DNA of 63,125 nucleotides, the filler included, from Lenisia limosa (lineage: Eukaryota > Protista > Breviatea): the NCBI GenBank assembly GCA_001655205.1. It is 8 parts of 8 records of this genome, joined end to end, with 100 filler letters (N's around TTAATTAATTAA, not from the genome) between each part and the next. Parts side by side here need not be neighbours in the genome. Positions count along the whole stretch, not along the records: positions 1 to 7,955 come from LPNZ01009703.1; positions 8,056 to 16,457 come from LPNZ01006139.1; positions 16,558 to 28,177 come from LPNZ01006893.1; positions 28,278 to 35,604 come from LPNZ01003137.1; positions 35,705 to 42,425 come from LPNZ01008262.1; positions 42,526 to 47,504 come from LPNZ01007217.1; positions 47,605 to 58,227 come from LPNZ01010468.1; positions 58,328 to 63,125 come from LPNZ01010736.1. One strand, 5' to 3'. The translations under genes were made by a program, and so were the position numbers. The notes under the pieces are model-generated. The model was not told the DNA's origin, ran no database searches, and worked only from the letters and a program-made list of their open reading frames with translations. This document shows, in pieces, positions 120-62,869 of the stretch; positions within the stretch are counted from its first letter, which is position 1; each line of letters begins with the position of its first letter.

Positions 120-3100
120 CAACAACCTGATCAATCAACTTGCGTTGAACCTTCGTCAAAATTCAGGGGATCTTTTCAGAGAAAATGGTAGGAGGGGGTT
201 AGGGGGTAATGGTTGTTGAATCATTTGGTAAATGGGAGATATTATGAGATCACCCCCCCCCCATCCTTTTTGAAAAATTAAATCCTTTAAATACTATTTA
301 AAATAATTCAATATCAATGTCTCTTCAGCGTGATGGTTTGGATGGTTTCACCCAGGTACAACTTTTTTGAACTTCTCATTTCTACATTAAAATGTTTGTT
401 ATTGCTTGTTTTTTTGTGTGTTTGGAGTTTCAGGTTATTCGGTTTGTGTACCTTTCGGAAATTTCCTTCGTTTTACTCTCCACAGCCACCGCAGAGCAAC
501 ATCTCATAGCCCGAGCCGTATTAGATCTCATGATCACCATCAACGCCCTACCCAACAACACGGTGTTCAAGGCCCTGGCAAACTGCCAAAACGTCCAAAA
601 TCTAGGTATATAGGGGGAGGGGGGTCTAGCAATGACCGGAATAGGTCTTGACCGATTATCTCTGGGAAATTATTCGGCAAATAGGTCAAGACTTATCCCG
701 GTTACTGTATATATACTATATGAGATGGTAGCCAGATACTGACTTGCTGTAGATCTCATCTCTATGTATCAGCTTGATTATTTCTTCAGCCAAACACTTT
801 CCACCTTCTACTCTTTCTTAACGTACTAGTATTCCCTACTGGAGTGTCAGTTCATGTTGGTGGTGTAAGCGGCTTCACAAGATCATATCAATGCGCCTGT
901 GGAGAAGTGGTGAGCATGGCTCTGTTTTGGAAGCAAAAAACAAGACCTGTTTCTTTTTTTTTTTTTCTTTTTTTCTTATTTTTTTGAATAAAAGAAACCC
1001 CCCCCCTCTCCCGTACGCTGGATTAATGGGATGCAGTGCTGCAGTAGCGGCTGGCCTGGTCTTTGTTTGTTTTNNNNNNNNNNNNNNNNNNNNNNNNNNN
1101 NNNNNNNNNNNNNNNNNNNNNNNNNNNTGTTATAACCCCTTGTGATTTGGGCTTATTATGTTTAATACATTTTCCAATTTCACCTCCCCTCCGCGCAGTA
1201 TGCTGTAGGCGATTGTGGGCATCTGAATGAGAACGGAAGATGCGCAAATTGCGGTTCTGCAATCGGCAATAGAGAAAATGCTCAGGCAGTTCAGAACAAC
1301 CATGTCACTTCTGCTGTGAGCAGGGGAGTTTTGAAGGGATTTTGGGTGGACGGTGACCGCGATTGACTAAGATAAAGCTCAGTATTCTTATCAGAACCTA
1401 TCGTGGTCACTGTGCATAACCTAGACGTTTGTGTGTTGTCAGCCAACAATTGATTTGGCTTTTTTTTTTTGTTTCATTAATTTTCCAATTTCACTCCCCC
1501 CCTCCCTCTCAGGGATACCCCGCACAAAGTAACGAGGCTCAACCCACACCGGTCGGCCAAATGAACACCCAAATGGTGGGGGTCCGTTATCATCGGCTTC
1601 ACTTTGGTTCGAAAAAGATTGAATTTCTCGATAAATCCTCGAAAACTATCGATATTTTGCAGGTCTTTTTCTTACCGATGTGAAACACAGGGGGAGGGTT
1701 TGGGGGTCAACTTCCTCTAGAAGCCAACAGAGTTGATAAAGGACGTTTTGTTTTTGTATTTGGTTGTTTCATATTTTTTTTCCAGTTTTACCCCCCCCCC
1801 CCCNNNNNNNNNNNNNNNNNNNNNNNNNNNNNNNNNNNNNNNNNNNNNNNNNNNNNNNNNNNNNNNNNNNNNNNNNNNNNNNNNNNNNNNNNNNNNNNNN
1901 NNNNNNNNNNNNNNNNNNNNNGCACTCTCCGGCAGCCAGCAAGCAGTTTCGCAGTTCGTATTCAAAAACACCACATCAGGTTTGGATTGTATTTTTTTAT
2001 GTGTTTCATAAATATGTCACTAGTAATGTATAATTACGTACATTTACACTGATCGCGATAAGTCATTCCAATTTTACTCCCCGCAGCTCCTCGGATGGTT
2101 GAAATCCTGACCAATCATCTGGAACAAGGCTGGAGGGCCTTGTCCGCCAACGCCGGTCTCCGCCCTGCTATTGCTCACGCCATTGCGCACCACGCGCAAC
2201 TTATGCGCGTGACTACCCACGAGGTCAATCAGAGGGTGGGAGGGGGGTATGCTGTAAAAATATACTACATAGTACATAGCAGCACATATCGATATATCTA
2301 TTAGAAATGTGGTGAGATTAAAAACAAACTGAAAAGTTTCTTATATTTCCCCCATTAATTCCTAATAAAAACAGAACCACGCTGGAATTGTCGCAGCAAC
2401 TCAGCAGTTGACAGCCGTGAATGAGGCCCTTCCCCAGGACAACAACCTTGCAGGTCTCGTACAAGTTTGTGGGGATAATCTTTCTTTTTTCTTTTGACTA
2501 TTATTCTTTTTGATAATTATATTTTTTCTTATTTGATAAATATTGGAGGCTTGTCCCGTAAATACACCCTCACAGAGTTGATTCTGGGCTTTGTTTTGTT
2601 GTTTGTCAATCATCTTGTGTTGTCAGCCAAGAGAGTTGATTTGAGCTGTTTTTTTTTTATCAAAATTTCTTCGTTTTATACCCCCCTTCCCATGTTTGTT
2701 ATTGCTTGTTTGTTTTTGTTTGGAGTTTCAGATTTTTTGGTTTGTGATTANNNNNNNNNNNNNNNNNNNNNNNNNNNNNNNNNNNNNNNNNNNNNNNNNN
2801 NNNNNNNNNNNNNNNNNNNNNNNNNNNNNNNNNNNNNNNNNNNNNNNNNNNNNNNNNNNNNNNNNNNNNNNNNNNNNNNNNNNNNTTCCGCCGGGAGTGA
2901 CCACACCCTTCAACGCCACAGATTTGGCCGCGTTCAAGGAGCACGTGGCGCAAGCCTCGCCTGACGCCACCAGGCTCTGCAAAATGGTGCGGGGTTGGGG
3001 GTTATCATAAAAAAAATAGAAATTATTTAATATTTACTATATTTTACTTTAATTCAAATACTATGAAAACATATAAATAATTAACCATGTGATGGTTAGG

Positions 3101-6100
3101 GGTGGGGGGGTGAATATCATATAAAGTTGAAATCTTTTACTTTATTATCTATATTTTAATATTCTACAAAATATAAAAACATAAATATATCACCAGGTAG
3201 GGGTGGTAAATATCAAATAGAATTAGATATATTTTACAACATACTATATTTCACTCTATTTCACTCTATAATAATACTAAGCACATAACATTCGTTTTAC
3301 CACCCCCCCCCCAACCCAGATGGTAGCCCCNNNNNNNNNNNNNNNNNNNNNNNNNNNNNNNNNNNNNNNNNNNNNNNNNNNNNNNNNNNNNNNNNNNNNN
3401 NNNNNNNNNNNNNNNNNNNNNNNNNNNNNNNNNNNNNNNNNNNNNNNNNNNNNNNNNNNNNNNNNNNNNNNNNNNNNNNNNNNNNNNAATGACGGTTGAA
3501 GATTGGTTGGAAACCCAGCCAAGAAGCGCTAACGCCAATGTCATTTTCGACAATTTGTGTCTGGCTTGGAACAGAGCGCTTCCCTATGTTGAGTGGTGTG
3601 AGTCTGAAAAACACCCCGATATTAAGCTCGAACTTACGACGAACCGTGCAATGGCCCATGTTTTGCCTTCAGAAGCCAACGAAGGGCTGTTGTTCCATCA
3701 CGTGGGGGGGAGGGGTTATCCATATTAGGTATGCATGTTGTATTATGGTATATTTATTATTTGTGTAAATGTACATAGTATGTACTATAATTATTTGTAT
3801 ACTATATATGTACATACATCAAATGTAATATGCATAAAAATGTCCCACTGACCTTGAACTGACCATCTAGATGATCGATAACACTATCAATGAACACAAC
3901 AACTTCGTGGTTGCCGTAAGAGGCGATCAAGTTTCCGCCATCCCCCTCTGGAACGTCAGCAGCGCTGATATGATCCATCTTTCTGCTGAGGGTTTGGGGG
4001 TCAACCAACAGAGTTGATTTGGGCTTCTTTTTTTTTATTTCAGAAATTTTCCAATTTTACTCCCCCCCCCCTCCTCAGACTGTCATACTTTCGGCTTGCA
4101 CGTGGCTAACCAGGACCTTTCGAACCCGATGACATGGCAACTGCCGAGAATCGAGAATGTGGGAGTTGAATTGAGAATGTGGCCAGGTATACAGTATATA
4201 CACGGGATAAGTCTTGAGCGATTTGATATGATTTCCGGTCGACTTATCCCGATCACTGTATAGTATATAATTTAATGGAAATTTTAATGGAATTCGCGGG
4301 GTTTTCTTCTCGATCCTTCCTTATAAGGTGTCTTGGCTTACCATTTTAGGCATCCTGAAAGTCTGACTTACTATATTAGGCATCTTTGTAGAGCCTCACT
4401 TACCATATTAGGCAATTCGGTCCGCTCTCAGCCACGCCAACCCCGTGAAGGCCGTTGACGACTTCCGATACGCGCCTAATACTGACGGTTCCGGCGCCGA
4501 CATCCAGGCCAGTCTTCTGGAAACCGTGGGAGGGGGGTGGGGGGCTTGAGAACAAGAATGTAAATGTATCAATTAATTAACGAAGATACACGTTCTGTAC
4601 AGATAAAAATAAGAAAGGAACAAGGAAATAACTAGTACAACAAAATTATACAACTTCGGCTGGTAGAGTAGGGAGGGGGGGATAGATTACCCTGTTAGTA
4701 AATCGGATTTTCCTTAGGGCGTGTGAGAGAAGCCCCTTAAAATCCCCCTTACGAAACTGACGCAGTCTTCAACCCCCCTCTCTTATCCTATTAGCATCCG
4801 CACACATTGGATGTACAATATATAGGGTTTCACTTCGGTTTGAAAAAAGACTGAATTTCTCGCTATCCTCGAAAACTATCGATTTTTACCGGTTTTTATA
4901 TGACCAAAGTGAAGCCCCATATTTATTTACTGTATTAATCGATATGTAATTCTATGTAGATCCTCACTCAGTCTCAAAAAAGTGGTCATCAGTCTCAAAA
5001 AAATATTTTTCTCCTTTCTTTTCTAATATTTTATCATGTTTATCGATATCATTTGTAGTTCTAGATACAATATATCCTAACTAATAATCCGCAGATTGTT
5101 CGCAACTTGCGCCAAGAACCCATGACAGAGTCGGTACAGGAAAAGGTTGACAGTTACTGCAATAACGCGGATTGCAAGAACGAACTCCGAACCCGTGCGG
5201 GGGGGGGGGAGTAAAATTAGAAAATTACCCTGATAGTTAACTCGGATTTTCTTAAAGACGGGAGAGGAAAGCCCAAATCAACTCTGTTGGAATAACAACA
5301 CACAGGCGCGGTGGGGTGAAGGGATATGAGGGAAGCCGTAATAATATCGCACCCATTTTTGATTTTTTGCTTTCATAAATTTTCCAATTTCACCCCCTCA
5401 GTGCTGTCGATCTGCTGCGCGCTCGTATCCACGCAAATAAACCTCGACCCCCGCACCAAAGCGGTGACCTATGTCATGCAGCATTTGCCAAGTGGGTGTA
5501 TTTTATGGTTTATTATCTGATTTCGTGGAGGTTATACATGTACAATGCGATTTTATTGGGTCTTTTTTATTTCATATCAAATCGGTCGACTTACCCCGGT
5601 CACTGTACATTTCCATGTTATTTCCTCTGTATCTACGCACTTCCCATTTCCATGCCTAACTGCTTTAGATACTGGTAAGTACAAGGACGAGGGAACTGAA
5701 CTGAACTGAACTGAAAGGGGCAGTTTTTGAAATATTGGCTTTTTGAGAACTTTTTTAAGAGAAGAGTATATCATTCATTATACCCACCACCCCCTTCACC
5801 CCATAGACATTTCCCGCATCATTGATGTCGATATTCAACTCAGCCATCTCCAAGCTCTGAGCGCTGCCCTGCAAAGAGACCTTGTTCTTGGCTCAGCCTA
5901 TAGCAATCCTTTCAATGACGTTTGAGGAGTATTATGAGGGTTTCCCTACTGTCTGACAAATATCGATACTGATCGAGAATTTTTCGAGAAATTCAGTTTT
6001 TTTGGGAAGCACTAGGTATTATTATTATTTTAATAATGGAGAGGGGGGAGATAGGAGTTTCTTGCCAACAGAGTTGATTTTGGGCTTTTGTTTCATATTT

Positions 6101-6571
6101 TGAGTTGATTTGGGCTTTTTCTTACCCCCCCCCCNNNNNNNNNNNNNNNNNNNNNNNNNNNNNNNNNNNNNNNNNNNNNNNNNNNNNNNNNNNNNNNNNN
6201 NNNNNNNNNNNNNNNNNNNNNNNNNNNNNNNNNNNNNGCCTTGTGGAGTGTAGTCAAGGCCTATAGAGCCGAGACCGTCCGCACCGTCCTCGAGGATTTC
6301 CAGTCTTTTGTCAGTCAATATATCTCGGTGAGGGGATGAGAGGATTTTTTCGAACCGAAGTGAAGCCCTATTCTGAGCCAATCGCAACTCGAATCTCCTT
6401 ACTCATTAGACTGCACGCTTCAAGTCCGGTGATCCCATGAGCAACCTCGAATACTGTCCCACTATAGCCGACAATGAGAAGGCTTCTGACCTCATAACGA
6501 AAATACAGGAGATTGGATTGGAATGGCGATTCTCTGATGCTCTTCTCAGGCTTCTTCGTGAGGCTCTTTGA
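120..6571 (+). CDS. RNF213/mysterin-like protein, C-terminal part (RZ finger + CTD); 5'-truncated, at least 18 exons
   Basis: Manual splicing gives ...SYQCACGEV|YAVGDCGHLNENGRCANCGSAIG (RZ finger-like). It continues EILTNHLEQGWRALSAN, FDNLCLAWNRAL..LPSEANEGLLFHH|MIDNTINEHNNFVVAV, WQLPRIEN, LLSICCALVSTQINLDP and IQLSHLQALSAAL..NPFND, in the same order as the RNF213 C-terminal motifs as I recall them. Stop TGA at 6569-6571. Confidence 0.8.
394..485 (+). repeat. Repeat family E (second acceptor-end module)
   Basis: TTTGTTATTGCTTG..TTGGAGTTTCAG.TTATTCGG..GTACCTTT..GAAATTTCCTTCGTTTTACTC..CAG. Other copies at about 2694, 9510, 41340 and 61800, and on the minus strand at 28400 and 47178. Confidence 0.75.
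3992..4078 (+). repeat. Family D minimal intron (87 nt)
   Basis: GTTTGGGGG..CCAACAGAGTTGATTTGGGC..AAATTTTCCAATTTTACTCCCCCCCCC..CAG. Confidence 0.7.
5195..5401 (+). mobile_element. Family D intron with both inverted arms
   Basis: The 5' arm GGGGAGTAAAATTAGAAAATT is the reverse complement of the family 3' end AATTTTCCAATTTTACTCCCC. Confidence 0.6.
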
Positions 6572-6890
6572 TTTTGTGCTTCTCGCAGCAGGAATATTTT
6601 CTTTGTTTTTACCTTATTTCTTCGCAGCTGATTCTATTCTATAATGTACACTACTGTTTCTTTTGCTTCAATTTGGAAAAGAAAACAATTCAGTTCAAAT
6701 AAACTAGGGATCCACTATCTTCATTTTATTTTCTCGGCTATTGAGCGTTTTAGCGATTTACAAATAGACTCGGGGTGCTTGTAAAACCAAAGATAATGTA
6801 AAACCAAAAGACAACTGTTTATATCGGAATAGCTCTATCCAACACAAGTCGGTCATACATTCAAACACCTCCAATATACCATACAAAACC

Positions 6891-7955: not shown

Positions 7956-8055
7956 NNNNNNNNNNNNNNNNNNNNNNNNNNNNNNNNNNNNNNNNNNNNT
8001 TAATTAATTAANNNNNNNNNNNNNNNNNNNNNNNNNNNNNNNNNNNNNNNNNNNN
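7956..8055. other. Artificial scaffold spacer 44N-TTAATTAATTAA-44N (the 12-mer also occurs at 16502, 28222, 35649, 42470, 47549 and 58272)
   Basis: Identical 12-mer with stops in all six frames, set in N runs, seven occurrences. Confidence 0.97.
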
Positions 8056-8253: not shown

Positions 8254-11200
8254 ATGGCAGCTCCTTCAAACAGTCCTCCCCACATCCACCTAACTCCCCA
8301 AAGTGAGCGAGTTGATAACCGATGAAATATGATTGTTTTTTGAGAGAAAGATATATAAAATTACTATAAACACAACTACATTAACACTTCTCAAAATTCT
8401 AGATTTAACAGTTCATTGTCGTGGTTTTATTATGTACCCAGGGAGGGGATAACCAATGACCATGCTCCCCCATTTAGGGTTTCAATTTGGTCCAAAAAAG
8501 ATTTGTCATGATAAAATCGATTTCGAAGATTTATCGAGAAATTGGAATGAAACTAATCCCTATCTTTAATCTAGCCATGTTAATTTTGCTCTAACCCATG
8601 AAAGCTACTCTAATCTAGAACATTCTCTTTTAATCCATAATAAAGCTACTCTAAGCTATGATTAATGATTAAGTTGCTCTAATCTAGAATATAACTCTAA
8701 TCTATGGCAATGCATAATTCCTGACAGTGCTCCTCGAAGCGTTCCCAATGGAGTTTGGCAAAGCTCGTACGTCGACTGGTCACCATGAAACGGACCTCCA
8801 AGCCTGCCTTCAGGATGACCATGGTGGGAGGGGTTATTCGGGAATTTATTAAACAAAAAAACAAACCCCAGAATCAACTCTTTTGGATAGCCCCAGAAAT
8901 AAAATTTGATGAAACACCGGGAAATTTGATGACTACTGTGATGGGGGGGGGGGGGGNNNNNNNNNNNNNNNNNNNNNNNNNNNNNNNNNNNNNNNNNNNN
9001 NNNNNNNNNNNNNNNNNNNNNNNNNNNNNNNNNNNNNTTTGTGACAATATAATACAATCTTCGAGTCAGGTTGGTGTTATTTTAAATAGAACTTCTCAAC
9101 GGTCCGAAAATGAATGTTTAAATATCGATATTTATCGAGGATTGTCGCTGGGGATATGCAACAAATAGACACTTACTCTTCAGCTAAAATGAAGATCAAC
9201 ACAGTCGTGAGGAAGCGTAGGAGGGAAATACTGTTTCGATCATATTTCTATTTCGATTCAAGGTTGTATGTTTCATTTTACCATCTTTTTTTTTCTTTTC
9301 TTTATTTTCATGCATTATTATTAAGTGGCTATTCTGCCCCAGATGAAGTAAGTGGACGGTTTCGGCCAGATACTACCAATTTACAAGTGGAAAGTCTTGA
9401 TCGATTATGCGCCACCCGAAGAAATCGGTCAAGACTGCCATGGCCACTGTTTACAAAATAATATGACATGCACCCGCAGTAGCATCAAGACTCTTATCAC
9501 AAAGCTTATTATTTGTTATTGCTTGTTTTTTGTTTTTTTGTTTGGAGTTTCAAATTATTTGATTAGTACCTTTACGCCNNNNNNNNNNNNNNNNNNNNNN
9601 NNNNNNNNNNNNNNNNNNNNNNNNNNNNNNNNNNNNNNNNNNNNNNNNNNAATAATTAATTACTTCGCTAATCCCTTGCAGCAGCAAGACGAGACACTAC
9701 GGCGGCGCCGCAGGCTGTGGTGCCGCTTATCTCGATTGGACATGCTGACGGCCGACATCAGCTGATTGTCAGGGTGGGAGGTGATTCCAACAAATGATGT
9801 TATATTCCATAGATATTTATCGAGGTTTTATCGATATATCAGTCTTATATTGGAACTAAATGGGAAGCTCTATAATTAGGGCTTCCCTACGGTCCCAAAA
9901 AGATTATGGACCGTAGTGAAGCCCTATCTATAATAGAATAAGAGAATACACGACCACTTTTTTGGTCTCTCATCGTCGTTAGGAGTTTCCGTTGACAAAA
10001 AGCGGGCAAAGCACCTTCCCGTCTTTGTACCCCTCAGTGCTGGGGGATGGATTGAATCCAAAAAAGCATAAGGCTAAACAGTTGTCGTCCACGCAGGTGA
10101 CTGGAATCGAAGGAGGTGGGGAGGGTAAAGATTGTAACATCATATTCTGATAATTCTTCTGGGGATCATTGACAAACACATAGGCTGTTCAGATGTAATT
10201 ATCTTCTTCCATTTTTTTTGTAAACAAGAGAAATAACAACTTAGGGACACCATAAACAGATTACCTTACTTCCGCGCCCAAACACTAGTCTTCAGTTCCT
10301 TCATCGTGACATTTTAGTGCCACCAAAATCCGATCCGGTTGATGAGAAAGTCAAAGGAAATCGGCATAAGGGCGGCTATTGTGAAAGATGCTGCGTGCGG
10401 TACAACCACTATGAAAATGTAAGGAGGGGAGATACGCAGCAAGATGAGTGTACAGAGTTGTTGTGGAGGCTTTGTTTGTTTTTATTGAATTTTGCGAGGT
10501 ATTTTTCAAGTTGATGTGCCTTCTTATAGCAATAGGTGGTGATGAATAAACCAGTGGGGATATTATCTGGCTGACGCTGCCCACACTTATTCCAAACAGC
10601 ACATTAAAAACGCGAAGCACCAGGAGCAAAATGAGATCGAAATCGTACGGCGGCCTATTGAAGCGCTTGCGATGGAGGTGTGCTGGGTGGCTGATAGGAT
10701 ATACAGTGCTGATAGAATGATATTGTCTCATTATTGGGGCTTCACTTCGATTCCAAAAAACCAGGAAATATCGATAGTTTTCGAGGATTTATCGAGAAAT
10801 TCAGTCTTTTTTCGAACCGAAGTAAAGCCCAACTCATTACCCTGCCAGATTAACAATCTTTTCTCCTACGACGACCCAGAGGATCCGTTCTACCCCATCA
10901 CCTTCGCTGAGCTCGAGAGCCCCTTTTCTTCTGACACTGTCAGGCGCAAGATGTTTTCAAGCGACCCAATGTGAGAAGCTATATTATAACCGGGATTAGT
11001 CTTGGCCGATTTGATATGATTTCCCAAGGAAAATCGGTCAAGACTTATCCCGGTGAATGTAAATGATATCTCCTAACAGAGGGATTCACGTAAATATAGT
11101 GCTCAGCTTACAGAGTTGATTGTGAGTTTATTTGCACGAATCCTGTTTTTACCCCCCCTCCCCAGAGAGCCAGCAACAGACAAAAGGCAACTCGACTCAG

Positions 11201-15864: not shown

Positions 15865-15937
15865 CAGTGACCAGGATAAGTCTTTTTTTCCTTGGGAAAT
15901 CTTAGGGCAAATCGGTCAAGACTTATCCCGGTCACTG
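15865..15937. mobile_element. MITE family B copy
   Basis: CAGTGACC..GGTCACTG with TA on both sides. Confidence 0.75.
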
Positions 15938-27323: not shown

Positions 27324-29190
27324 GCCAATTATTTCAACATCAAAAAGAATAGTTGAAAAAATTATTTATTTTCAATTAATTGGTCTACTGAAGAGTTACT
27401 GCTTATACCTTTTGACCATGTTGAATATAAAGAGCATATATACTATATATATGTGCTGGAGCGCCAAAACTCCAAATTTTATAATATAACTCCGAATTTT
27501 ATTTTTCCAACAACGCACAAATAAGTTCATATTTCATGAAAACAAAGAAAAAATGTACATAAAACATAAAATGAAGACAATAGAATACTGTTTTTTCCAT
27601 AAAAGAGCAAAATTGGATCACTTTTTTTTTGCTGATCTTGCCTTGATCTTGAAAAAAAAAAAAATTCCCCTGAAACGTCATTCTTTTACCAAAAGGCTCT
27701 TGAAGATATAATATACGAAATAGTTCATAGATAAAATCAGCAAAAGNNNNNNNNNNNNNNNNNNNNNNNNNNNNNGAGAAACCGTTGAGGCGTTTGAGAA
27801 GCTCAACTTTTTTCACCCTGTAAGTTGGAATGTAGTTTGTTTTCCACTCCGCTCCCTGTCTAATATTGAGCATTGCTATTGTAAGAAGCTCTCTATGAGA
27901 GGAAATCACCCACTCACGCTTCTCTATCTGATTTATCTTTTACCATTTGACCTTATTCAGTGGCACCATGGGGAGGAAAAAGGCAGTTCTTTACTTTGAG
28001 GAGAAGCTTCAAGGAATGGAGGTAAGAGATATTTGGGGAGTAAAACCAAATATCCTGACAAACATGGAAAAAGATCATATTCTCAAGGAGATTGCTGAGC
28101 TGATGGTGAATCTGCCACCTGATTCAATCTATGACCAGGCTTCGTTCTGCATGTACCCAATGGCAAGTGGCTACGCANNNNNNNNNNNNNNNNNNNNNNN
28201 NNNNNNNNNNNNNNNNNNNNNTTAATTAATTAANNNNNNNNNNNNNNNNNNNNNNNNNNNNNNNNNNNNNNNNNNNNTGAAACAAAAAAGCCCAAATAAA
28301 CTCTGTTGGGAAATGAGAAGTCTGAAATGGACCTGGTCACCTTCACAGAATACTTCATAATAAAAATATTTGTGTTTAGGGTTTGGGTGGGGAGGGGTAA
28401 GGAAACTGTGATGAAGAGTATTGGCGTAAAAAGGCACTAATCATAAACATTAATCTGAAGCTCCCAAACAAAAAAAAAAACCACAGATTGACAAAAACAA
28501 ACAAAAAAAATGACACAAACACATTGCCCAAGAGGGTGAGGTTTTCCAAGATTGGAATAGGTAAAAAGAAAGCGAATATAAACATGATAGTCATCAGTTT
28601 TACGTTACTATTCAGTAAACAGCAGAATGACCTTCCTTCCCGTACCTGTTTTGCTGAAGCAGACTGTTTGTGATTACTTCTGCTCTTCCCCATTTCAAAG
28701 TATTACGGAAAGAAATAGTACGCCTATTTATACTCAACAGACAGATGAGCAGCTCCCCTTCGATGATAGATGATCTGGAGATGGGCAGATGGTGAGGGCG
28801 GAGGGCTGTTCTTTCCTTCTCCCCCTTTTCTTTATTATCGTTTGTTGAGAGTTGGAGTAGTAGTATGGGTCAAGAAGAGGCTGAGAACGGGAGACGGGGC
28901 TGGACGGAAAACGAAACAAAAGATTGGCGCCGCCGGGCAGTATACGATTCCTTCTATCTCTGGACGGGGAGGAGGCCTTTCAATCAATATATGCAATAAT
29001 TTTGGTTGTTGCCAGTTTTGTTTATCACCTGCATTTTCACATTTTCATTCCCACTCGAGTTATAAATAAGTTATCCCCCCTACACCCACTCACCACCGAC
29101 TCCTGTTGAATACCCCAATAACACAAACGAAATAAACGAACAACGACATGCATCGATCTAGGCATGGAATAAAATAAAGGCGGTAACAAC

Positions 29191-33014: not shown

Positions 33015-34708
33015 CTAATCACCATCCACCATTATGCTAGTAGCGATGTTGATACCCTCAACTCCCAACAGAAAGTCAGACACCTCTCGCCCACTCTGTA
33101 TTCGATCGTCAAGGTTGATGTTGATATTGAGCGCGTTTCTAAGCAACGCGTGATCTTTTCCGATCATTGAGTCTCTGAACTGTAAATTGGGACGCCATCC
33201 AATGCACAGCGTATAGAAATGTAGTAATATGAAAAAGTGCAGGTACAAACGAGAGCAAAGTACTGCAAAAAGCCCCCCACCCTTTATTCATAACCAGCAA
33301 CAACGGCTTTGAACGAGCTTTGTCGTCAGTCATTAATTTGTTGAGCAAGTACGCCGCCGCATTGAGAGACAATAAATTGGAGGCGTCAATGACAAACTGG
33401 AGGGTCAGCACGTGGTGTTTGGGGCAACACGATACGGGAAAACATTGATACCTATCGAGCATAGAAAGCAAACAAATCAAACTTAGATACCCCCACACAA
33501 GTACACTCTCANNNNNNNNNNNNNNNNNNNNNNNNNNNNNNNNNNNNNNNNNNNNNNNNNNNNNNNNNNNNNNNNNNNNNNNNNNNNNNNNNNNNNNNNN
33601 NNNNNNNNNNNNNNNNNNNNNNNNNNNNNNNNNTCAACCTGGGGGTCAAAAATGGAACCTGGAAACAAAAATAAATCGGAGGTATGTTATTATTATACAT
33701 GTAATAGTGGTGAAGTATTCTGTCACTTAAAAACAGAACACCATAGAATATGATATCTTTTGCGTGTAAATTACATGAAAAATATATTATTATTGTTCTA
33801 AAAGGCCAAAAACAGAAATCCAGCCCCGAGGTAAGGTAACAATGGAATCTTACGTAAACTCTATGGAGACCCCCCCCCCCTCAAATCAACTCTGTTAATG
33901 TGAGAAACACACGAGTTGAAAAAAATCAAAATACAATAAAAGGCCGCGCTTCTGCAGCCTCGTATCCCATCAACAAAATAAAATAAGGAGAAGAGCACTA
34001 CCCTGTCAAAAGCAGCTTGGAATCCATATTTTGCTTGTATCCAAATAATGATCAAGCATATACATGACCAGGGGTCGTTGTTTGAAAGAAATCCTTATCT
34101 GTTCCCTAAATATAGAAACAATCGCCTTCACCAAAAATAAAAAAAAAACCGAAGAGAAAAAAAAAAAAAAANNNNNNNNNNNNNNNNNNNNNNNNNNNNN
34201 NNNNNNNNNNNNNNNNNNNNNNNNNNNNNNNNNNNNNNNNNNNNNNNNNNNNNNNNNNNNNNNNNNNNNNNNNNNNNNNNNNNNNNNNNNNCACCAAATT
34301 ATAACCCCCATACCTTCTTCCCTGACAGCTTGATTTGCACGGACTCCACGCCAATCTATCGGGGTGACAACAAAACAAAGAGGAAGCCACGTCATAGAAA
34401 GACATGTTGTGACTGTGGTGATGACCAGAGGTGATTTGACAAGGTTGGGTAACAATGAAACAATTATCCAATTCGCAATACCGTGGGGTGAATAGCATAG
34501 TTAGTAAGGCACTGTAGAGGATGAAGATCAAAAGCCCCAACCGTGGAGAGGTAAGAAGATAACTGACGCTCATAGTTCTTCTTATTTCTTTGTTTATAAG
34601 CTGTTGGGAGGTGAGAAGCCATGAGGAATACACGGACGTACTCTGAATTCGACGAAGCAATGACGTTTTCCCTGATCCCTCTGTTCCAACAAAGAGGATC
34701 GTCTGCAT
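33015..34708 (-). CDS. Arf-family small GTPase, ARL16-like
   Basis: MQTILFVGTEGSGKTSLL (G1), HPT|IGVE (G2), ESVL|FVIDASN, LLLVMNKG|D (G4). The G3 exon probably lies in the N gap at 33512-33633; the 3' end is uncertain. Confidence 0.7.
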
Positions 34709-38276: not shown

Positions 38277-39392
38277 GATGAAGTACCAAGTCCCCATGCC
38301 GGCGCGAGCAGCGATGGAGAGGTCTGGGCTGATGCGGTGACCGGAAGTTTGGCGTCATCCCTGGCACCTTCCATATCGGGTATGTTGGGCCTTATTATCT
38401 TACGTTTCGGGTAATATATGTTGTTTTTATCAGTCTTGAGTTGTTTGGTTTTGTTTTATAAATATCCACTTAACTTACATGTACGCTGGGTGTGGTGCTG
38501 TAGAAGCAGCTGGCCTGGGCTTTTTTTTGTTTTGTTGTTCTCAACCCTTGTGTGTTGTCAGTCAACATAGTTGATTTCTTTTTGTTTCATAAATTGTCCA
38601 ATTTTACCCCCCCCCCCCTCCCCAAGGCGGTGCGAGTGGTGGGGTAATTGCTGTGGAAGAAGACATAACAGAAGGACGTCAGATGATTAGCGAAGAGAAT
38701 TCTGAACACATTGAACCTGAGGAGGCAAATGAAAGTGGTCAAGTTCGACAGGACAAGGATTACGAGCAAGAAGATAACCAAAGTGCTGAAATTGAAGAAG
38801 AAGATAACGAAAGTGCCGAAATTGAAGAAGAAGATAACGAAAGTGTTGAAATAGAAGAAGAAGATAACCAAAGTGCTGAAATTGAAGAAGAGGACATCAT
38901 TGTGGAGATTGAGCCCGCTGTAAACGTTCGCGAAGACATTTTCATTGATGCTGATATTGACGGTGATGACGAAGAAAGCTCCGATGATGACTCATCAAGG
39001 TAATGGGGGGGGGGCATACTGAGATCAAGATAGGACATTAAGGGGGTCTTGGGATACAATAAACAAAACAGGAATGTTTAATTTGTATCGATTTACCAAT
39101 ATTAATCTCATTTATATTTGGTATTTATTCGTGTCCTTTTCACTTCTCTCGTTCATCTATTTTCATCTTTTCATCCTTTAGATCCTGGGAGGGAGTAATA
39201 TGGCACGACCAAGCACAGCAACAGGTCTCCAAAACAGTCAGCTCGGACCCCGCAAGACCAGAGTCGCAGAACAACGAAAATGTTCTAGTGGAAGAAGAGG
39301 ACAATAATGTGGCAGAGGAGTATGACGAGGAGGAAGAAGACGAGCATGATGTCGAATATGAGGAAGACGCGCCTATGGAACCGTCTATTCTG
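38277..39392 (+). CDS. Acidic low-complexity exons with about four copies of a 10-aa repeat EDN(Q/E)SAEIEE
   Basis: 30-nt coding tandem repeat at about 38770-38890; spliceable open exons; may belong to the upstream LisH gene. Confidence 0.55.
38485..38626 (+). repeat. Family D copy at an intron 3' end
   Basis: Same block order, ending in a C-run and AG at 38625-38626. Confidence 0.75.
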
Positions 39393-42380
39393 GTGGGATG
39401 ATTGGGAAATGAGAAAGAGGCGCCTATGAAACCGTCTATTCTGGTGGGATGATTGGGAATGTTCAAGTGGCAAGGGCAACTTGGACCATTCAGATCTTGT
39501 AGGGTTGGAATATCAATGTACAAATGGATTGCGAATGGTTAAGTGTTTCAGTTGGAACTTCAATGCCAAAACCTATGCACTTCACCCTCGTGAGTGTTGT
39601 CAGGCAACAGTGTTGATTTCAGTTTTTTTTTTACATTAATTTTCCAATTCCACTCCCCCTCCAGGATAACAGAATTCACCCCCCCCCCCCCNNNNNNNNN
39701 NNNNNNNNNNNNNNNNNNNNNNNNNNNNNNNNNNNNNNNNNNNNNNNNNNNNNNNNNNNNNNNNNNNNNNNNNNNNNNNNNNNNNNNNNNNNNCTGACAA
39801 AGAGCTTGATGAGGCCTGGAAGTTCCTTAAGGCGGGTTCTTGCTTACTATTGTTAAGGCTCCGTGCAATTAATTGATGAAATAATCGCAAAATTTGAAGT
39901 GTGACATATTGTAATGTATTCTCAATTTTGACACTTTAATTTCGAATTTTGTGAATTAATTCAAAACGTTAATTGTACGGAGACCTCCTATTTGTGAATA
40001 ACATTCATGTTTATCTTTTGTGGAAGTGTTGTTTCCTCTCTTTATGATTCTCACCTTTTTATAAAAATACTCTCAAACTTAAGCTCACCTTCCCCTTAGG
40101 ACGTGATATGCTTCAGAGCCTCCTATAGTGCTGGTCTGCTCCCAATGACGTCGATTGAGGTTTGGAGGGTTTTTGTGTGGGATGCGAATAGCCTCTTCTT
40201 TTCCCACTCCTATGCGTTATTATACACAAAACATAACAAGTAACACGATGATAAAGGCCATATCCGGTTTTCAATTTTCCAGCCTCTGCGAATCTAGCAA
40301 AACGCTGTGGGCTGATAGCTGTATGGAACTTTCATCCAATATATATATCTCTTATAAACGTGATGGTGTAGAAGGCTTCGGCTGGATGCAACCTTGTTTT
40401 GTTTTATCGCTATGTATTCTTCTGTATCCCTAGTCATTTAAAGTGTTTTTTTTGTATATCCAAAAAGAAGATTGTGTGGACGGCTTCGGCCCAATACTTT
40501 TTTCAATTAAGAATAGTGAATCGCACATCACATTTTTCACTGATCAGAAATGCTTCACTCTGAGCGAGGAAATGGCTGAATTTCTCGCTATATCATCGAT
40601 ATATTTCGATAGTTAAACGATCTTTTTCGAACCGGAGTGAAGCAATTGTCAAAAACAAATTTGCTTGATAAATCCTCCATAATATTTGATATTTTGACGG
40701 TCTTTTTTCGGACCTGAGGGAAGCCCTACTCAAAAAAATGAATCTCACATCACATTTTCCCGTAGAATGGTCCTAACATCTTAGTCTCCGGAGAGTGTTA
40801 GCCGAGTGGATGTCCATCACGTGTNNNNNNNNNNNNNNNNNNNNNNNNNNNNNNNNNNNNNNNNNNNNNNNNNNNNNNNNNNNNNNNNNNNNNNNNNNNN
40901 NAATTCTGTATTGAAACTAGGATCATAGAGATCCCTTTGAGTTTCTCAATTTGCGTTCACCTCCTAGCGTTTTTGGCCCTGGAATCTCCGGAGTATGACA
41001 GTCAAGGTGGGAGTGGTGTGATATATCAATTATGGGGGTGGGGGAGTGGGGGAGAGTCTTGAGGCACACAGAAAGCTGTACACTGTTGTAGGTTGTTGTT
41101 GGGTGGATTATTGTTCACAGCAAGGGGCTCCTCTTTTTCAACAGAGTTGATTTGGGTTTTTATCGTGTTTTCATAGACACTATCGAAATTTCTTTCATTT
41201 CACTCCCTTTCCCCTGATGGGATGCGGTGCTTCTGCTGAAGGGACTTTCCTGGGCTTTGTTTTGTTGTTTTCTACACTTGTATGTTGTCAGCCAACAGAG
41301 TTGTTATTGGGCTTTTTTGTTTATTAAATTTCCCATTTGCAGTTTCAGATAATTCGGTTCGTGATTAGTACCTTTACGGTACTTCATCGAAATTTGCTTC
41401 GTTTTACTCCCCCCCCCCCCAGTTGACGACTTTGAGCAGCAGCTTGCACAGGCCCTGATGCAGCCTCCCGTGTCTCGCGATGATGATGACATGGTGATGG
41501 GGGAAGGGGTCAAATAGATACACATATGCAGATACATATGTATGTAGTATAGATACAGAAATACTCTTATTTTTTAAACGGACTCACCCCCTCCCCCCAG
41601 GCCATCCCATACCTCTCCCCACCATGTAAGAGCCCGGGGGAGGCCCCAGGGGATATGTCATCGCCGCACCCTGTTGCCATATCCGCACCGGGTGCTGCTA
41701 CGCCCTCGCCTTTTGAGATTACTAAGCAGGTGTGTGTATTATGTTTGAGCTTGCTAGACTGGTGTGTATTTCTAGATATCTACTGTTTTTGAATTTTCTA
41801 AAGAGGTGTGTGTTTCTTTGATGTTTTAAGCTTGCTACACGTGTACTTGGTTGTTAGAGTTTTTAGAACTGACAGTGTTAATGTTATCTCTTTTGTACTC
41901 CTAAATTATATTCGTGTTACTAATACTGCTGTATCTTGAAGCAATGGTATTTCTTTTAGCCTGTCATTGGTTACAGGGTATATTCTCTATTGTAGATTGT
42001 GTCTTTGAGCGTTCAAACCAGTGGTCTTAACACTTGAGCGCACACTGGACCAAAAAATATGTGTATTGTCCGCGAGTTTCTCAAATTATATTATGTCACC
42101 TTCTGTGGTTCCCAAAGATTAGCCAACAGAGTTGATTCTGGGTTTTTTTTTGTTTCAATAATTTTCCATTTTANNNNNNNNNNNNNNNNNNNNNNNNNNN
42201 NNNNNNNNNNNNNNNNNNNNNNNNNNNNNNNNNNNNNNNNNNNNNNNNNNNNNNNNNNNNNNNNNNNNNNCATCTTTCGAACCTCCAGGTAGGACACCGA
42301 TTACTTGCCTTTTTTGTTTTCTACTACTTGCCTTTTTTGGTTTATACTACTTGCTTTTTTAGGGTTATAAGGCGACCCCC

Positions 42381-47367: not shown

Positions 47368-47490
47368 CCGCAAATTTATGAAACAAAAAGCCCAAAATCC
47401 ACTCTGTTGGCTGGCAACACACGAGGGCTGATAACAAACAAAGTCCAGTCCAGTCGCTTCTGCAGCACCGCATCTCATCTCGGGGGCAGG
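47368..47490 (-). repeat. Family D copy on the minus strand
   Basis: Reverse-complement match lying in an intron of a minus-strand gene fragment. Confidence 0.75.
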
Positions 47491-47828
47491 GGGGCAATAT
47501 CTATNNNNNNNNNNNNNNNNNNNNNNNNNNNNNNNNNNNNNNNNNNNNTTAATTAATTAANNNNNNNNNNNNNNNNNNNNNNNNNNNNNNNNNNNNNNNN
47601 NNNNTGGGTTTATGAAACAAAATAACTTTTCTATTGGTAAAATGTACAATAGTGTTAATGAGGAATACTGTATATATATCTACAGCATAATGAACAATAT
47701 CAAGATACAAGGGAGTGGGGTTAAAGTTGGAAAATTTATGAAGCAAAAAAAATGAGAGGGGAAAAAAGTAACTACTCAAAGCCCTGTTGGTTGAACATCA
47801 GAACAGATGTAGAGATTAACCAACCCTC

Positions 47829-48563: not shown

Positions 48564-52670
<4,107 letters not shown>

Positions 52671-58327: not shown

Positions 58328-61300
58328 GATGTCGGCGTCACGCTCACGCAACTCAAGGAGTTTCTCAAGACTATTGTGGGGGAAGGGAGGATATAAGCAA
58401 ATGGGTTCTGAGTTGATTTTGCGGGCTTTTATATTATTATTATTATTCTTTATTTTTTGAATTTCTCGAGAAATCTTTGATAAATATCGATATTTGACTG
58501 GTCTTTTTTTGGACTCTAGGGAAGCCCTAGTCGTGGGTTTTGGGTTGATATTGCCCTTGTCGTGGGTTCTGAGTTGATATTGCGACGGTTTCTTTTTATA
58601 AAACAAGAGAAATGATATAGTACAAATCTAGGGAAACAAATAAATACATAGGGATACCATAAACATTTTACCATGCTTCTGCGCCCACGCTCCTCGGCGC
58701 CCTCTTCCCCGAGATTGTTGCTGTTGTTTTAGTGGTTAATATAGTTTCATTACCCCCCCCCCCCANNNNNNNNNNNNNNNNNNNNNNNNNNNNNNNNNNN
58801 NNNNNNNNNNNNNNNNNNNNNNNNNNNNNNNNNNNNNNNNNNNNNNNNNNNNNNNNNNNNNNNNNNNNNNNNNNNGTCTCTGGTGGGGTGGTGGTGAATT
58901 GTCCAAGCAGAGGTATTTTAGAACTTTGGAATGCGGTACAGAAGCGACTGGCCTGGGTTTTATTTGTTTTGTTATCAACCCTCGTGTGTTGTCAGCCAAC
59001 AGAGTTGATTTTGGGCCCTTTTTTTTTTTTCCATTCCATTTTACCACATCATTTACCTGCTAGATTCCATTCTGGCTGATCTCTGACGACTGCTTACTGA
59101 CAGCGTTGAAGACGGTGAATGCCCAGTCAGGCTGGAGGGAGGTCAACTCTTCGGTTCCATCGTCGTATTTCCATGACGACTTCATCACCACGGTAAGCCT
59201 TGGCCTCTGTTTTCTTGAATCATGACCATCGTATTTTCTTTTCTTTCTTATTCCCTATTAGGCAATTAGTGTCTCGGATTCCTACGGATTTGAGGCAAAT
59301 ATCGTCATTTCCGGCCCTATTAGCGACTTCACCGCTAAGGTTGGGAAGACTATTTTTTAGTGTTAAACTCTTCAAGGGTTATTTGCTTGCTTTGTGCTAC
59401 TTTGAACTTGCTTTTTTTTTTTTTTTTTTTNNNNNNNNNNNNNNNNNNNNNNNNNNNNNNNNNNNNNNNNNNNNNNNNNNNNNNNNNNNNNNNNNNNNNN
59501 NNNNNNNNNNNNNNNNNNNNNNNNNNNNNNNNNNNNNNNNNNNNNNNNNNNNNNNNNNNNNNNNNNNNNNNNNNNNNNNNNNNNNNNNNNNNNNNNNNNN
59601 NNNNNNNNNNNNNNNNNNNNNNNNNNNNNNNNNNNNNNNGCATGCGTGTGACCATGGTGATTATTGGTAGGGCTGTCTATTTCTTGAATTTGTCTCCTCA
59701 GATTTCCATGATTTCTTCCCCTCACAACTCAGGCGTCGTAATGACGATTCTGTCAATGGCAGTTGTCGGGTTCATTACAATGCAGTTTACCCGCCCCCTG
59801 CGATTAGTGGGCGAAAAGCTTGATGCTGTCTCACGTCTGGAGTTCCCGGAGAATAAGTGGGGGGGGGGGGGGNNNNNNNNNNNNNNNNNNNNNNNNNNNN
59901 NNNNNNNNNNNNNNNNNNNNNNNNNNNNNNNNNNNNNNNNNNNNNNNNNNNNNNNNNNNNNNNNNNNNNNNNNNNNNNNNNNNNNNNNNNNNNNNNNNNN
60001 NNNNNNNNNNNNNNNNNNNNNNNNNNNNNNNNNNNATTCTTCTATAGAAGGAAACTAACACCTCAGACGGTCGCGGTCAAGATTTACAGAAATTGCCGAC
60101 TTAGACCATCGAGTCCGGGCCGTGCATCAAAGCTTCAGGCACTTTAGGGCTAATATGGTACGCAGGGCCGGTTACATCCCTATGATATAGTATGTTGTAC
60201 CCCCTCCCCCCCATTTTTCATCTTTTCAGCAAGATCGCCTGGCTCAGATTACTGTGCTCAATGTCAACATCTCTAATGGTGCGGTGGAGTTATCTCATCA
60301 AGCAATTGAACCGTCTTCCGTTTTCCTAACTTATTTAGTTAACGCCGAAGATCTCGAAGTTCTGCCGAATATCCTAGCTGAACTATTCATGATTTGCACG
60401 GATAACCACGCAGCTGTATGAGTGACTTTTTATTCTCCATTGGGGGGTCATTTGTTCTCGCGTTTTGAAATTGCCACCCAATGATATGCGGTGCTGCANN
60501 NNNNNNNNNNNNNNNNNNNNNNNNNNNNNNNNNNNNNNNNNNNNNNNNNNNNNNNNNNNNNNNNNNNNNNNNNNNNNNNNNNNNNNNNNNNNNNNNNNNN
60601 NNNNNNNNNNNNNNNNNNNNNNNNNNNNNNNNNNNNNNNNNNNNNNNCTTTTTGTTTCATAAATTTTCCAATTTTCTCCCACCCCTCTTCTTTCACTTTT
60701 GGGGTTTGTAACACTGATCTCCTAGATGTCAGTAGTAGTCAAAAAATAATAAAAAAAACAAACCGTTTTGACCTCCGTAGATGTCGGTAGTCACAGAGCA
60801 AGGTCTGCAGTGCTTCTGGACCGACGCGCGGACAATCGAAAGTCACCCTTCTGTCGCCTGCAAAACCGCCATTAAGCTGTCTTCGTGTTTCCCGCAAATA
60901 GTGGTACGGGGGGGGGGGTGGNNNNNNNNNNNNNNNNNNNNNNNNNNNNNNNNNNNNNNNNNNNNNNNNNNNNNNNNNNNNNNNNNNNNNNNNNNNNNNN
61001 NNNNNNNNNNNNNNNNNGACATCCAGGTTCGCCCGTCCCCTACTATTTGCGATTTTCATCCAATATCCTTCATACAAGCTTCCTTCATCAAAATCACCCC
61101 TTTTTTGAACAAGAAAAGATAAATAGTATTATTATTTGTAGAGATGAATGAAATATCTTCTGTACAGTGATGGAAATCTGTGTTACTTTCGCATTTCTTG
61201 TTTTAATGACACACTTGCCCTCTTTGTTACTTTCTTTTGGTACACTTTCCTTATTTGGAAACTGATATGCTAGGTTGGTGTGGCAACAAACCACGCTAGT

Positions 61301-62869
61301 ATCCTACAAGCTCCTGCCACCAAGCACAACCTGCCTGTCCATGAGTATGAGGGGTGGCATATGTTGAATATTGTACAGATATCCTAACTGACCTCCCACC
61401 ACCACCACCATAACTTGTTTTAAATGACAGAGTTGATTGTCTTCAAAATATGCCCTTTTACCCCTATGGAGGCTTGGGAGGCTTTGTTTGTTTTGTTGTT
61501 GTTCTTAAACCCTCGTGTGTTGCTAGCAAACAGAGTTGATTTTGGGCTTTTTGTTTCATATAGTATTTCACGAGTTGATTTTTGGGCTGGTTTTTTTTCC
61601 TAGCTTCTACCATTTCACCCCCAAGAAGGTGCTCGCAGACCGACCTTATGGCAGTTCAAGGCCCGGCAGTGGAAGAGGCTGAAACTATGATGCGCCTCTG
61701 CGTCACGTACCAGGTGGGGTGATTTTTGGGTTTTCGCTTGCTATAGCCAACAGAGTTGTATTTTTTTATTTTTTTTTATTTTCCAATTTTACGTTTCAAT
61801 GCTGATTGCTCATGTTTTTGTTGCTTGTTTTCAGTTTTGTTTGTTTGGTTTCAGATTATTTGGCCTTTACGGCAATATTCTTCATCGAAATTTCCTTCGT
61901 TTCACGCCTCACACCTCACCCTCCAGTTGCCCGTGGTAATCAATGACGTTGTTCGAGCCCACGCCGGAGGCACTTTTGTGACCCGGTGCATTGACGGCAT
62001 TATGGTGCGAGAGGGGATTTTGAGTTTAATTATTTTATTTTTTTTGTTATTTCCTCTTACTCCNNNNNNNNNNNNNNNNNNNNNNNNNNNNNNNNNNNNN
62101 NNNNNNNNNNNNNNNNNNNNNNNNNNNNNNNNNNNNNNNNNNNNNNNNNNNNNNNNNNTCCTTCCAGATGAACTCGGGACTTGCCCCCGAAGCCTTCCAT
62201 CACCTCCTTGGCCCTCGCACGCCCTTGCATGACAAGAAAAATCGGTATGTCCAGGCTACCAAGTGGAACTCTTTCCAGTAATCTTTATCCCTTCTCAGCA
62301 ATTCCTCAATTGATAATCATATAACCCATCTTTCTGGACCCAAAATAAAGCTGTAACCCTTTGTAACTCTCCCCCCGACAGCTGTCAAATATTGACAAAC
62401 TTACCATATTAGGCATGTGACGGAAGCGCTGGAGTCCCAGGCCCGGGCCTACACAAAGCTCCTCCGCACGGCGTGGGGTGCCGGTGTGTGTACGGCCAAT
62501 GGCGGCGGCGATGAACGAGCGTCTTGTCTACATAGCCCTGAGGTTGGTTCCCAAATAGGCAGTTCCTAAAAAGGAATCTGGTCACGTTTTCCTACGTGAT
62601 GGGATGCAGTGCTGCAGAAGCGACTGGCCTGGGTTTTGTTTGTTTTGTTATCAACCCTCGTGTGTTGTCAGCCAACGGAGTTGATCTGGGCCTTTTTTAT
62701 TTCATACATTTTCCAATTTTACCTCTCCCCCCAGCTATCCACCCCGAAGCGACACGAGAACCTGCAAAAAGCCCAGACCTTAGCCTCGCAATACAGCATG
62801 ACGTACAGCCACGACTTTGCTGGCCGAGCGCTTCTCAAGGCAATCGAGGCCGCTTTGGAGGTGCCTGAG
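58328..62869 (+). CDS. Large multi-exon hypothetical protein (fragment)
   Basis: More than 12 GT-AG-bounded open exons, e.g. QFLKRNLVTFSY|LSTPKRHENLQKAQ; no family recognised. Confidence 0.55.
58930..59063 (+). repeat. Family D copy at an intron 3' end
   Basis: CAGAAGCGACTGGCCTGGG..CCCTCGTGTGTTGTCAGCCAACAGAGTTGATTTTGGGC. Confidence 0.8.
62596..62734 (+). mobile_element. Repeat family D: whole intron made of the repeat (Introner-like)
   Basis: 139-nt GT..AG intron, GTGATGGGATGCAGTGCTGCAGAAGCGACTGGCC..GCCAACGGAGTTGAT..TTTTCCAATTTTACCTCTCCCCCAG, near-identical to intronic copies elsewhere in the window. Confidence 0.7.

What the first reader, a model, noticed from the sequence alone, without database searches (positions are those of the whole stretch)
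1015..62734. Candidate Introner-like intron-generating element: one repeat family builds the 3' end of dozens of introns across all scaffolds
Seen: about two dozen copies (counted by eye) of a block (GTACGCTGGA)GTGATGGGATGCGGTGCTGCAGAAGCGACTGGCCTGGG-T-rich-CCCTCGTGTGTTGTCAGCCAACAGAGTTGATTTTGGGC-TTTCATAAATTTTCCAATTTTAC-C(n)-(C)AG. They lie in introns of unrelated genes (RNF213-like, RuvBL2, ARL16-like, the acidic-repeat gene, the 58-63 kb gene). Nearly all are in the host's sense orientation and abut the 3' splice site, including copies at about 33880 and 47370 in minus-strand genes. At 62596-62734 and 3992-4078 the repeat is essentially the whole intron. Established: Introners are transposon-derived repeats that create spliceable introns. 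Inference: a lineage-specific, partly decayed Introner family may explain much of the extreme intron density.
Basis: partly seen in the sequence, partly recalled or inferred. Interest (0 to 1): 0.85.

Follow-up and report, generated by a model that had tools for sequence, protein, structure and literature searches.

The report
Intron-shaped repeat invading old intron ends
A 140-base repeat sits near the ends of many introns in this single-celled-looking eukaryote, but two of those introns are ancient ones shared with fish, so the repeat likely copies itself into existing introns, probably through RNA, rather than creating most of them.

Summary
The repeat (family D) is real: 26 copies in 7 of 8 scaffolds, none in controls, 24 in the host's sense orientation. 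The Introner reading is mostly not supported. D-bearing introns have unrelated 5' ends; D reaches the 5' splice site in 1 of 15; 62596-62734 is not a whole intron; only 7 of 24 sense copies visibly abut the acceptor (9 do not, 8 unresolved). Yet D is intron-shaped: full copies begin with a donor-like GT and end in a branch-point-like motif, C-run and AG. Copies lose 5' parts, stack at intron 3' ends, and face G-runs when antisense; no terminal repeats or stable fold were found. Best reading: an intron-derived unit copied, likely through RNA, into C-runs of old introns, often supplying their branch point. Whole-D introns elsewhere in the genome are not excluded (no genome held). Two stretches complementary to U6 snRNA are unexplained.

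The parts
1013..1183 (+). D, full-length start (donor-like GT), N gap inside; in RNA-supported intron 910-1198, 104 bases after the donor, ends 15 before the acceptor end
1424..1494 (+). D 3' half in RNA-supported intron 1316-1512, abuts acceptor
1722..1800 (+). decayed D 3' part followed by C-run and N gap, intron starting 1576
2584..2686 (+). D followed by family E (2690-2750) in intron starting 2454
3992..4078 (+). 87-base RNA-supported intron made almost wholly of the last 40% of D; best candidate for a D-made intron
5201..5309 (-). antisense D whose 3' end faces the G-run after the donor of intron 5195-5401; a short sense D stub (5359-5392) ends the same intron
6064..6126 (+). D 3' part plus second stub, then C-run and N gap
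8837..8888 (-). antisense D facing the G-rich donor at 8824 of a + strand gene
   Evidence: host strand by eye
28278..28309 (-). D stub at scaffold edge, downstream of a family-E copy (28395-28499)
31769..31863 (+). decayed D in a + strand intron, acceptor in N gap
33880..33972 (-). decayed D, sense, mid-intron in minus-strand small-GTPase-like gene; does not abut acceptor
38481..38608 (+). D, full-length start, abuts acceptor of intron 38380-38626; preceded by an older branch-point-like motif
39586..39653 (+). D 3' half, then C-run, AG, a second C-run and N gap
41139..41409 (+). stack: D stub, near-full D (41214-41340), family E, in intron 41007-41422
42121..42171 (+). D 3' part running into N gap
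47372..47482 (-). near-full D, sense in a minus-strand gene; family E (47184-47296) lies between it and the acceptor
47722..47819 (-). decayed D, sense in a minus-strand gene
49657..49696 (+). D 3' part abutting acceptor of RuvBL2 intron 5 (49491-49712, phase 0 after Q120); age of position not tested
51947..51984 (+). D full-length start in RuvBL2 intron 12 (donor 51815, phase 2 in R373), 133 bases in; position shared with distant eukaryotes
52224..52313 (+). decayed D in RuvBL2 intron 13 (52152-52345, phase 0 after K416); position shared with distant eukaryotes
58927..59044 (+). near-full D in intron 58883-59063; a second branch-point-like motif follows it
60477..60683 (+). D with N gap inside, about 100 bases before the acceptor of intron 60416-60780
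61425..61622 (+). stack of three D pieces (main hit 61480-61564) in intron 61345-61625
61745..61908 (+). D 3' part then family E in intron 61714-61926
62593..62722 (+). best-kept D copy; intron is 62543-62734 (ORF-inferred), D starts 50 bases after the donor
48564..52670 (+). RuvBL2 gene, 14 introns, used for the intron-age test

Best explanation
Family D is a roughly 140-base intron-shaped repeat found inside existing introns, at least two of them ancient, and it likely spreads as a copy of intron RNA that is primed at the C-runs and G-runs lining this host's intron ends. Shown: sense bias, position in the 3' part of introns, unrelated intron 5' ends, ancient position of RuvBL2 introns 12 and 13, donor-like GT at the start of full copies, branch-point-like motif at the end, stacking of D and family-E modules, two antisense copies facing G-runs. 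Inferred: an excised intron RNA ending in C-run plus AG anneals to the G-strand of a broken target C-run and is reverse-copied from its 3' end, giving sense copies that keep the 3' end and often lack the 5' end; the same priming at a donor-side G-run gives antisense copies; a copy beside the acceptor is tolerated because its own branch-point motif replaces the old one. The copying enzyme is not identified.
For: Orientation 24 of 26. Hit starts spread over model positions 2-111 while 22 of 27 hits end at 120 or later. All 4 copies that reach the model start begin GTAYGC, like host donors. 39 of 43 introns have a YTNAY motif 8-25 bases from the end (shuffle mean 22, maximum 30 in 200); D's terminal motif is the last such motif in 6 abutting introns. 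5' ends: mean local score 10.7 among D introns against 10.9 among D-free; 3' parts 21.8 against 12.8. Old positions. No shared upstream flanks among 528 pairs beyond AT-rich or short matches. No terminal inverted repeat (best 8-11 of 20 in 4 copies, no random control); folding z -0.08 to 0.66 in 5 sequences. Nine more hits of the same make in four contigs fetched because they hold D.
Against: No reverse transcriptase among the 77 of 204 ORFs scanned; the mobile genes found are DNA transposases. 5' loss can also come from later insertions or decay: one copy in L084 is split by a 2.3-kb inverted-repeat element (by eye), and 9 of 27 starts cluster at model positions 85-91, which may be a subfamily or a scoring effect. 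Selection on the branch point alone would also keep 3' ends. In 4 introns another branch-point-like motif lies downstream of D, so D does not always supply it. One sense copy (33880) is mid-intron and ends at a G-run. Only 2 intron positions were dated; the branch point is inferred from sequence, not mapped.
Confidence: 0.5

Rival explanations
1. D is a true Introner-type mobile intron; whole-D introns exist elsewhere in the genome and the window shows nested or merged remnants made by reverse splicing into unspliced pre-mRNA, as reported for Micromonas.
For: Unit runs from donor-like GT to branch point, C-run and AG; sense bias; 3992-4078 is nearly all D; PMC3879977 reports 32 Introner remnants buried in conserved introns plus nested or merged copies.
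Against: 0 of 15 delimited D introns is a full D from end to end, whereas in Micromonas remnants are the minority (463 against 6,112); two antisense copies; reverse splicing does not explain 3'-end clustering or 5' loss.
Confidence: 0.22
2. DNA-level repair or ectopic gene conversion copies intron 3' ends between loci, anchored on the shared C-run and AG; D is a passenger.
For: Anchoring at C-runs and G-runs, variable 5' extent, D-E composites, a second family (E) behaving the same way.
Against: Four copies stop at the same GT boundary; upstream flanks are not shared; D-E junctions differ between loci (by eye).
Confidence: 0.12
3. One reading: D is an Introner that inserted into exons and made these introns, whose 5' parts later decayed; it explains much of the intron density.
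For: Sense bias; 7 copies abut the acceptor; intron 3992-4078; RuvBL2 intron 5 position is undated.
Against: RuvBL2 introns 12 and 13 are at shared positions; intron 5' ends unrelated while near-full copies are still 79-94% alike; 32 of 47 annotated introns lack D; D-free RuvBL2 introns 8-10 also appear shared (read-through fragments).
Confidence: 0.08
4. D is a randomly inserting DNA-transposon derivative; selection removed antisense, mid-intron and intergenic copies.
For: The genome is rich in palindromic MITE-like families and holds DDE transposase genes.
Against: No terminal repeats; the MITE-like families sit anywhere in introns while D is end-bound; antisense intronic copies should be harmless.
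Confidence: 0.08

Closest known systems
Introners (Gozashti et al. 2022 PMC9860276; 2025 PMC12130899)
   Same: Repeated intronic sequence in unrelated genes, carries splice signals, strongly genic.
   Different: Those surveys require similarity to reach both splice boundaries and filter out secondary insertions into existing introns; D fails the 5' boundary in 14 of 15 introns and sits in ancestral introns.
Micromonas IE remnants and nested or merged IEs (Verhelst et al. 2013 PMC3879977)
   Same: Sense-only repeat pieces buried in conserved introns; nested copies; RNA route proposed.
   Different: There remnants are a minority and have lost splice signals; here they are the rule, keep the branch-point end, stack at 3' ends, and 2 of 26 are antisense.
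Fungal introner-like elements and stwintrons (PMC8469720, listing only; ILE features from PMC3879977 passage)
   Same: No terminal repeats; intron-shaped unit inside another intron.
   Different: ILEs have a conserved fold; D has none. Removing a full D from GT to AG leaves no outer acceptor at 1013 or 38481 (by eye), so these are not working stwintrons.
Sequence-targeted SINE or non-LTR retrocopies; antisense Alu supplying acceptor signals (recalled); snRNA-headed SINEs (PMC4494074, abstract start only)
   Same: 5' loss with fixed 3' end, tandem stacking at a simple-sequence target, repeat supplies splice signals.
   Different: No tRNA, 5S, 7SL or snRNA head found by Rfam; no poly-A tail or target duplication seen; orientation is sense.

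Membership tests
Introner | Family of sequence-similar introns in unrelated genes | tested here: met
   26 copies, near-full copies 79-94% alike
Introner | Similarity begins within about 10 intronic bases of both splice sites | tested here: not met
   5' side met in 1 of 15 delimited introns, and there from the middle of D; 5' ends unrelated
Introner | Insertion creates a new, lineage-specific intron position | tested here: not met
   2 of 2 tested positions (RuvBL2 introns 12, 13) shared with distant eukaryotes; other D introns undated
Introner | Host introns are spliced, GT-AG | tested here: met
   RNA-contig lengths fit 5 D-bearing introns in 1-6640; transcript-derived protein P0125 defines 3 in RuvBL2
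Introner | Presence/absence polymorphism between close relatives or strains | not testable with these tools
   No genome or relative held; both runs found come from one study
MITE-type Introner / MITE | Terminal inverted repeats | tested here: not met
   best 8-11 matches of 20 in 4 copies; no hairpin excess
MITE-type Introner / MITE | Target-site duplication | tested here: inconclusive
   None seen by eye in flanks; C-runs on both sides of some copies could hide one
Fungal ILE | Stable conserved secondary structure | tested here: not met
   z -0.08 to 0.66 for 5 sequences
SINE | Head derived from tRNA, 5S, 7SL or snRNA | tested here: inconclusive
   No Rfam match; two short stretches complementary to human U6, not collinear within one unit
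SINE | Partner reverse transcriptase in the genome | not testable with these tools
   No genome; none in 77 of 204 ORFs scanned

The most novel reading that the evidence does not exclude
D is a mobile spliceosomal intron RNA that homes to the ends of existing introns instead of to exons, repeatedly replacing the branch point and acceptor region of ancient introns genome-wide; its two U6-complementary stretches, which become collinear across the lariat branch, hold it on the spliceosome and make it mobile, and truncated copies starting at an internal GT (3992-4078) occasionally found new introns.
Probability: 0.15. Interest if true: 0.82.

Novelty: new variant of a known kind. Interest (0 to 1): 0.45.

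Why it matters
If the best reading holds, splice signals of very old introns are being overwritten by a mobile intron-shaped repeat while intron positions stay fixed. That is a route of intron sequence turnover that Introner screens filter out by design, and with hundreds or more copies it would make the disputed RNA route of intron mobility testable by junction statistics and lariat sequencing. It also warns that repeated intron 3' ends are not evidence of intron gain. It does not explain this genome's intron density, which in RuvBL2 looks largely inherited.

Tried and rejected
No whole genome held, so no genome-wide count. Metagenome scan for RuvBL2 loci kept 80 of 537, nearly all intron-free; the few introns seen in 6 loci were at other positions and say nothing on introns 5, 12, 13. 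Viral-contig scans: no D motif, no paired motif, no RuvBL2. Plasmid blastn: only E>=1 matches. Rfam: nothing at gathering score in the window, only E>=4 on two D copies; no U6 over cut-off in G001. RNA contigs on 58328-63125 confirmed two D-free introns but bridged no D intron; short RNA contigs with D sequence there are not evidence of a D transcript. Contig depth over D bins (about 2,800-15,000 against 17-39 in unique bins) suggests many copies but the tool warns it is no copy number, and some bins also hold MITEs. G-run/C-run pairing of intron ends: no correlation (rho 0.16, p 0.29, n 43); rejected as a general terminal repeat. Stwintron reading rejected by eye for 2 full copies. RuvBL2 intron 5 could not be dated. 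Three 14-base D motifs were absent from the supplements of PMC9860276 (1 file) and PMC12130899 (12 of 14 files searched); those files may hold no sequences, so this is weak. Earlier-findings look-ups were empty. N-run lengths are not true lengths (157 N bridged by 90 bases), so distances across gaps were left unresolved. The host lineage was not placed.
Full report
Setting. The window is eight eukaryotic scaffolds joined by spacers, with many N runs that mostly follow C-runs or G-runs. No genome is held. One DNA-like and one poly-A RNA run from a single study hold the sequence. Transcript-derived proteins identical to the window's eIF4A (P0002) and RuvBL2 (P0125) exons were found and used to fix exon borders. 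The host RuvBL2 is 68% identical to a turbot protein, and over 207 residues where turbot and sea anemone share 86.5% it shares 72-74% with them, so the host likely lies outside animals; its lineage was not placed.

The repeat is real. A profile from 14 natural copies gives 27 hits at E<=0.05 (26 copies, 0.44 per kb), none in the reversed window or in 10 local shuffles. Copies lie in 7 of 8 scaffolds. Nine near-full copies are 79-94% alike over aligned columns. Four contigs reached through an exact D motif in a prokaryote genome bin hold 9 further hits among the same intron style and the same companion repeats; they were chosen for holding D and give no density.

Where copies sit. I annotated 47 introns: 13 from RNA contigs (11 in 1-6640, where the exon model reproduces both contig lengths exactly, 627 and 838 bases; 2 in the last scaffold), 21 from the two proteins, 13 from reading-frame continuity. 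Fifteen carry a D hit, 32 do not. Of 26 copies 24 are sense (p 1e-5). The two antisense copies have their 3' ends against the G-run behind a donor. Seven sense copies end within 21 bases of the acceptor, nine do not, eight are unresolved because of gaps whose lengths are unreliable. In six of the nine, another D piece or a second family (E, 7 copies in the window, all read as sense) lies between, so modules stack at intron 3' ends.

Introner test 1, both ends. The published screens require similarity to start within about ten intronic bases of both splice sites and discard secondary insertions (PMC9860276, parts 1-2 of 7 and passages; PMC12130899, passages). D starts 31-233 bases after the donor in 14 of 15 introns. 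Bases 3-40 of D introns are no more alike (mean score 10.7, 105 pairs) than those of D-free introns (10.9, 435 pairs), while their 3' parts are (21.8 against 12.8). The exception, 3992-4078, begins at model position 85.

Introner test 2, age of the positions. RuvBL2 introns 5, 12 and 13 carry D. A profile of the 43 residues between introns 12 and 13, built from 28 intron-free loci, found 767 proteins, of which the best 150 were listed. Many are gene calls that read through exon borders. In 97 of 150 the upstream flank is not RuvBL2-like (46 are, 7 too short); all 97 have R or S just before the exon and 65 have a residue whose codon must end in a pyrimidine one place earlier (2 cannot), as a YAG acceptor in phase 2 demands. 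In 118 of 150 the downstream flank is unrelated (22 related, 10 too short) and 104 begin with V, as a GT donor in phase 0 demands; 86 show both breaks. Five of them have the exon stretch identical to the named turbot protein. The library is clustered and unnamed, so these are not species counts, and R is also the native residue, but the signature cannot come from the query design. Both positions are therefore old, and D arrived later; independent gain at two neighbouring positions is possible but unlikely. D-free introns 8, 9 and 10 show the same kind of break in a handful of fragments, and 35 eIF4A relatives break near a host eIF4A intron. From recall of the human gene, not from a call, introns 2, 4, 6 and 7 match as well and intron 5 does not; intron 5 stays undated.

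What D looks like. All four copies that reach the model start begin GTAYGC, like host donors. The unit ends in a motif of the host's branch-point type: 39 of 43 introns have YTNAY 8-25 bases from the end against a shuffle mean of 22 (maximum 30), mostly at 9-11; D's motif is the last one in six abutting introns, at 14-21, but in four introns another lies downstream. Hit starts scatter over positions 2-111 while most ends are at 120 or later. No terminal repeats, no unusual fold, no Rfam family, no shared upstream flanks.

Mechanism. An intron RNA copied from its 3' end and primed at C-runs explains sense bias, 5' loss, the GT boundary, stacking and the antisense copies at G-runs in one scheme (0.5). 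It is inferred: no reverse transcriptase was found in 77 of 204 ORFs scanned, which gave only DNA transposases, and decay plus selection on the branch point can mimic 5' loss. The main rival (0.22) is a true Introner whose whole copies lie elsewhere: in Micromonas 32 remnants lie in conserved introns and nested copies occur, though remnants are 463 against 6,112 (PMC3879977, passages and section 11); reverse splicing has been proposed for such elements (PMC4540971, passages).

Unexplained. Two D stretches (model 23-37, and about 128-138) are complementary to human U6 snRNA at 14 of 15 and 11 of 11 bases (U6 as printed in PMC4457786 Table 1, one passage, compared by eye). Rough chance expectations are 0.0008 and 0.0045, but the comparison was post hoc, the order is not collinear within one unit (it is across a tandem junction or a lariat branch), only 4 of 11 copies keep the first stretch exactly, and Rfam sees no U6. 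It is a lead only.

Prior description. Nine paper searches found no account of such a family; PMC11282704 (part 2 of 5) reviews transposon-derived introns without one. D motifs were absent from the supplements searched (two files unseen, sequences may not be held there). The library lacks most subscription papers, so absence is weak.

Verdict. Observation partly confirmed; intron-generating claim not supported where tested; a real, odd, intron-shaped coloniser of old intron ends. New variant of a known kind, interest 0.45.

Noticed in passing
window 391-478, 2690-2750, 9510-9578, 28395-28499 (-), 41332-41409, 47184-47296 (-), 61812-61908: Family E: a second non-palindromic repeat, read as sense in all 7 copies, often between D and the acceptor and ending in the same branch-point-like motif.
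   Followed up: partly
window 7126-7216 (-), 8123-8176, 9352-9379, 11923-11951, 16022-16113, 35311-35400, 40335-40403, 40470-40507, 45272-45369: Family F: a third non-palindromic repeat, mid-intron, apparently sense-biased where the host strand is clear.
   Followed up: partly
window 1594-1686, 4825-4918, 10736-10831, 32931-33015, 40552-40727; 631-711, 10985-11063, 15864-15941, 45148-45231, 46878-46959; 46382-46534, 50128-50331: Three palindromic MITE-like families in introns; ends resemble Harbinger, Tc1/pogo and CACTA types (labels recalled). The first has the highest contig depth.
   Followed up: partly
window 22564-23513 (+); L085 234-1109 (-): piggyBac-like DDE_Tnp_1_7 transposase in pieces; a DDE_1 transposase in L085.
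   Followed up: no
introns across the window, e.g. 3702, 4526, 5195, 50107, 50472: Long introns often start with a G-run and end with a C-run (14 of 43 each, 7 both); both rise with intron length but not with each other. G-runs occur at old positions (RuvBL2 introns 8, 9).
   Followed up: partly
D model positions 23-37 and about 128-138, e.g. window 62605-62619 and 62711-62721: Two stretches complementary to human U6 snRNA; not detected by Rfam; unexplained.
   Followed up: partly
window 1697-1710 and 3992-4005: Two D-bearing introns of one gene share a 14-base G-rich donor-like stretch just before the D 3' part.
   Followed up: no
L084 1420-3755: A 2.3-kb element with inverted ends splits a D copy in two (by eye).
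   Followed up: no
L081-L087 (G001): A prokaryote genome bin carries several contigs of this eukaryote or a very close relative (contamination), one with a sugar-kinase-like gene with D at two intron ends (kinase label by eye).
   Followed up: partly
window 12278-15361 (+): A 1028-residue intron-free ORF rich in Glu, Lys and Arg inside an otherwise intron-dense gene; no Pfam match.
   Followed up: no
window 60715-60745 and 60770-60795: A short duplication of an acceptor and the first exon bases; the downstream copy keeps the frame.
   Followed up: no
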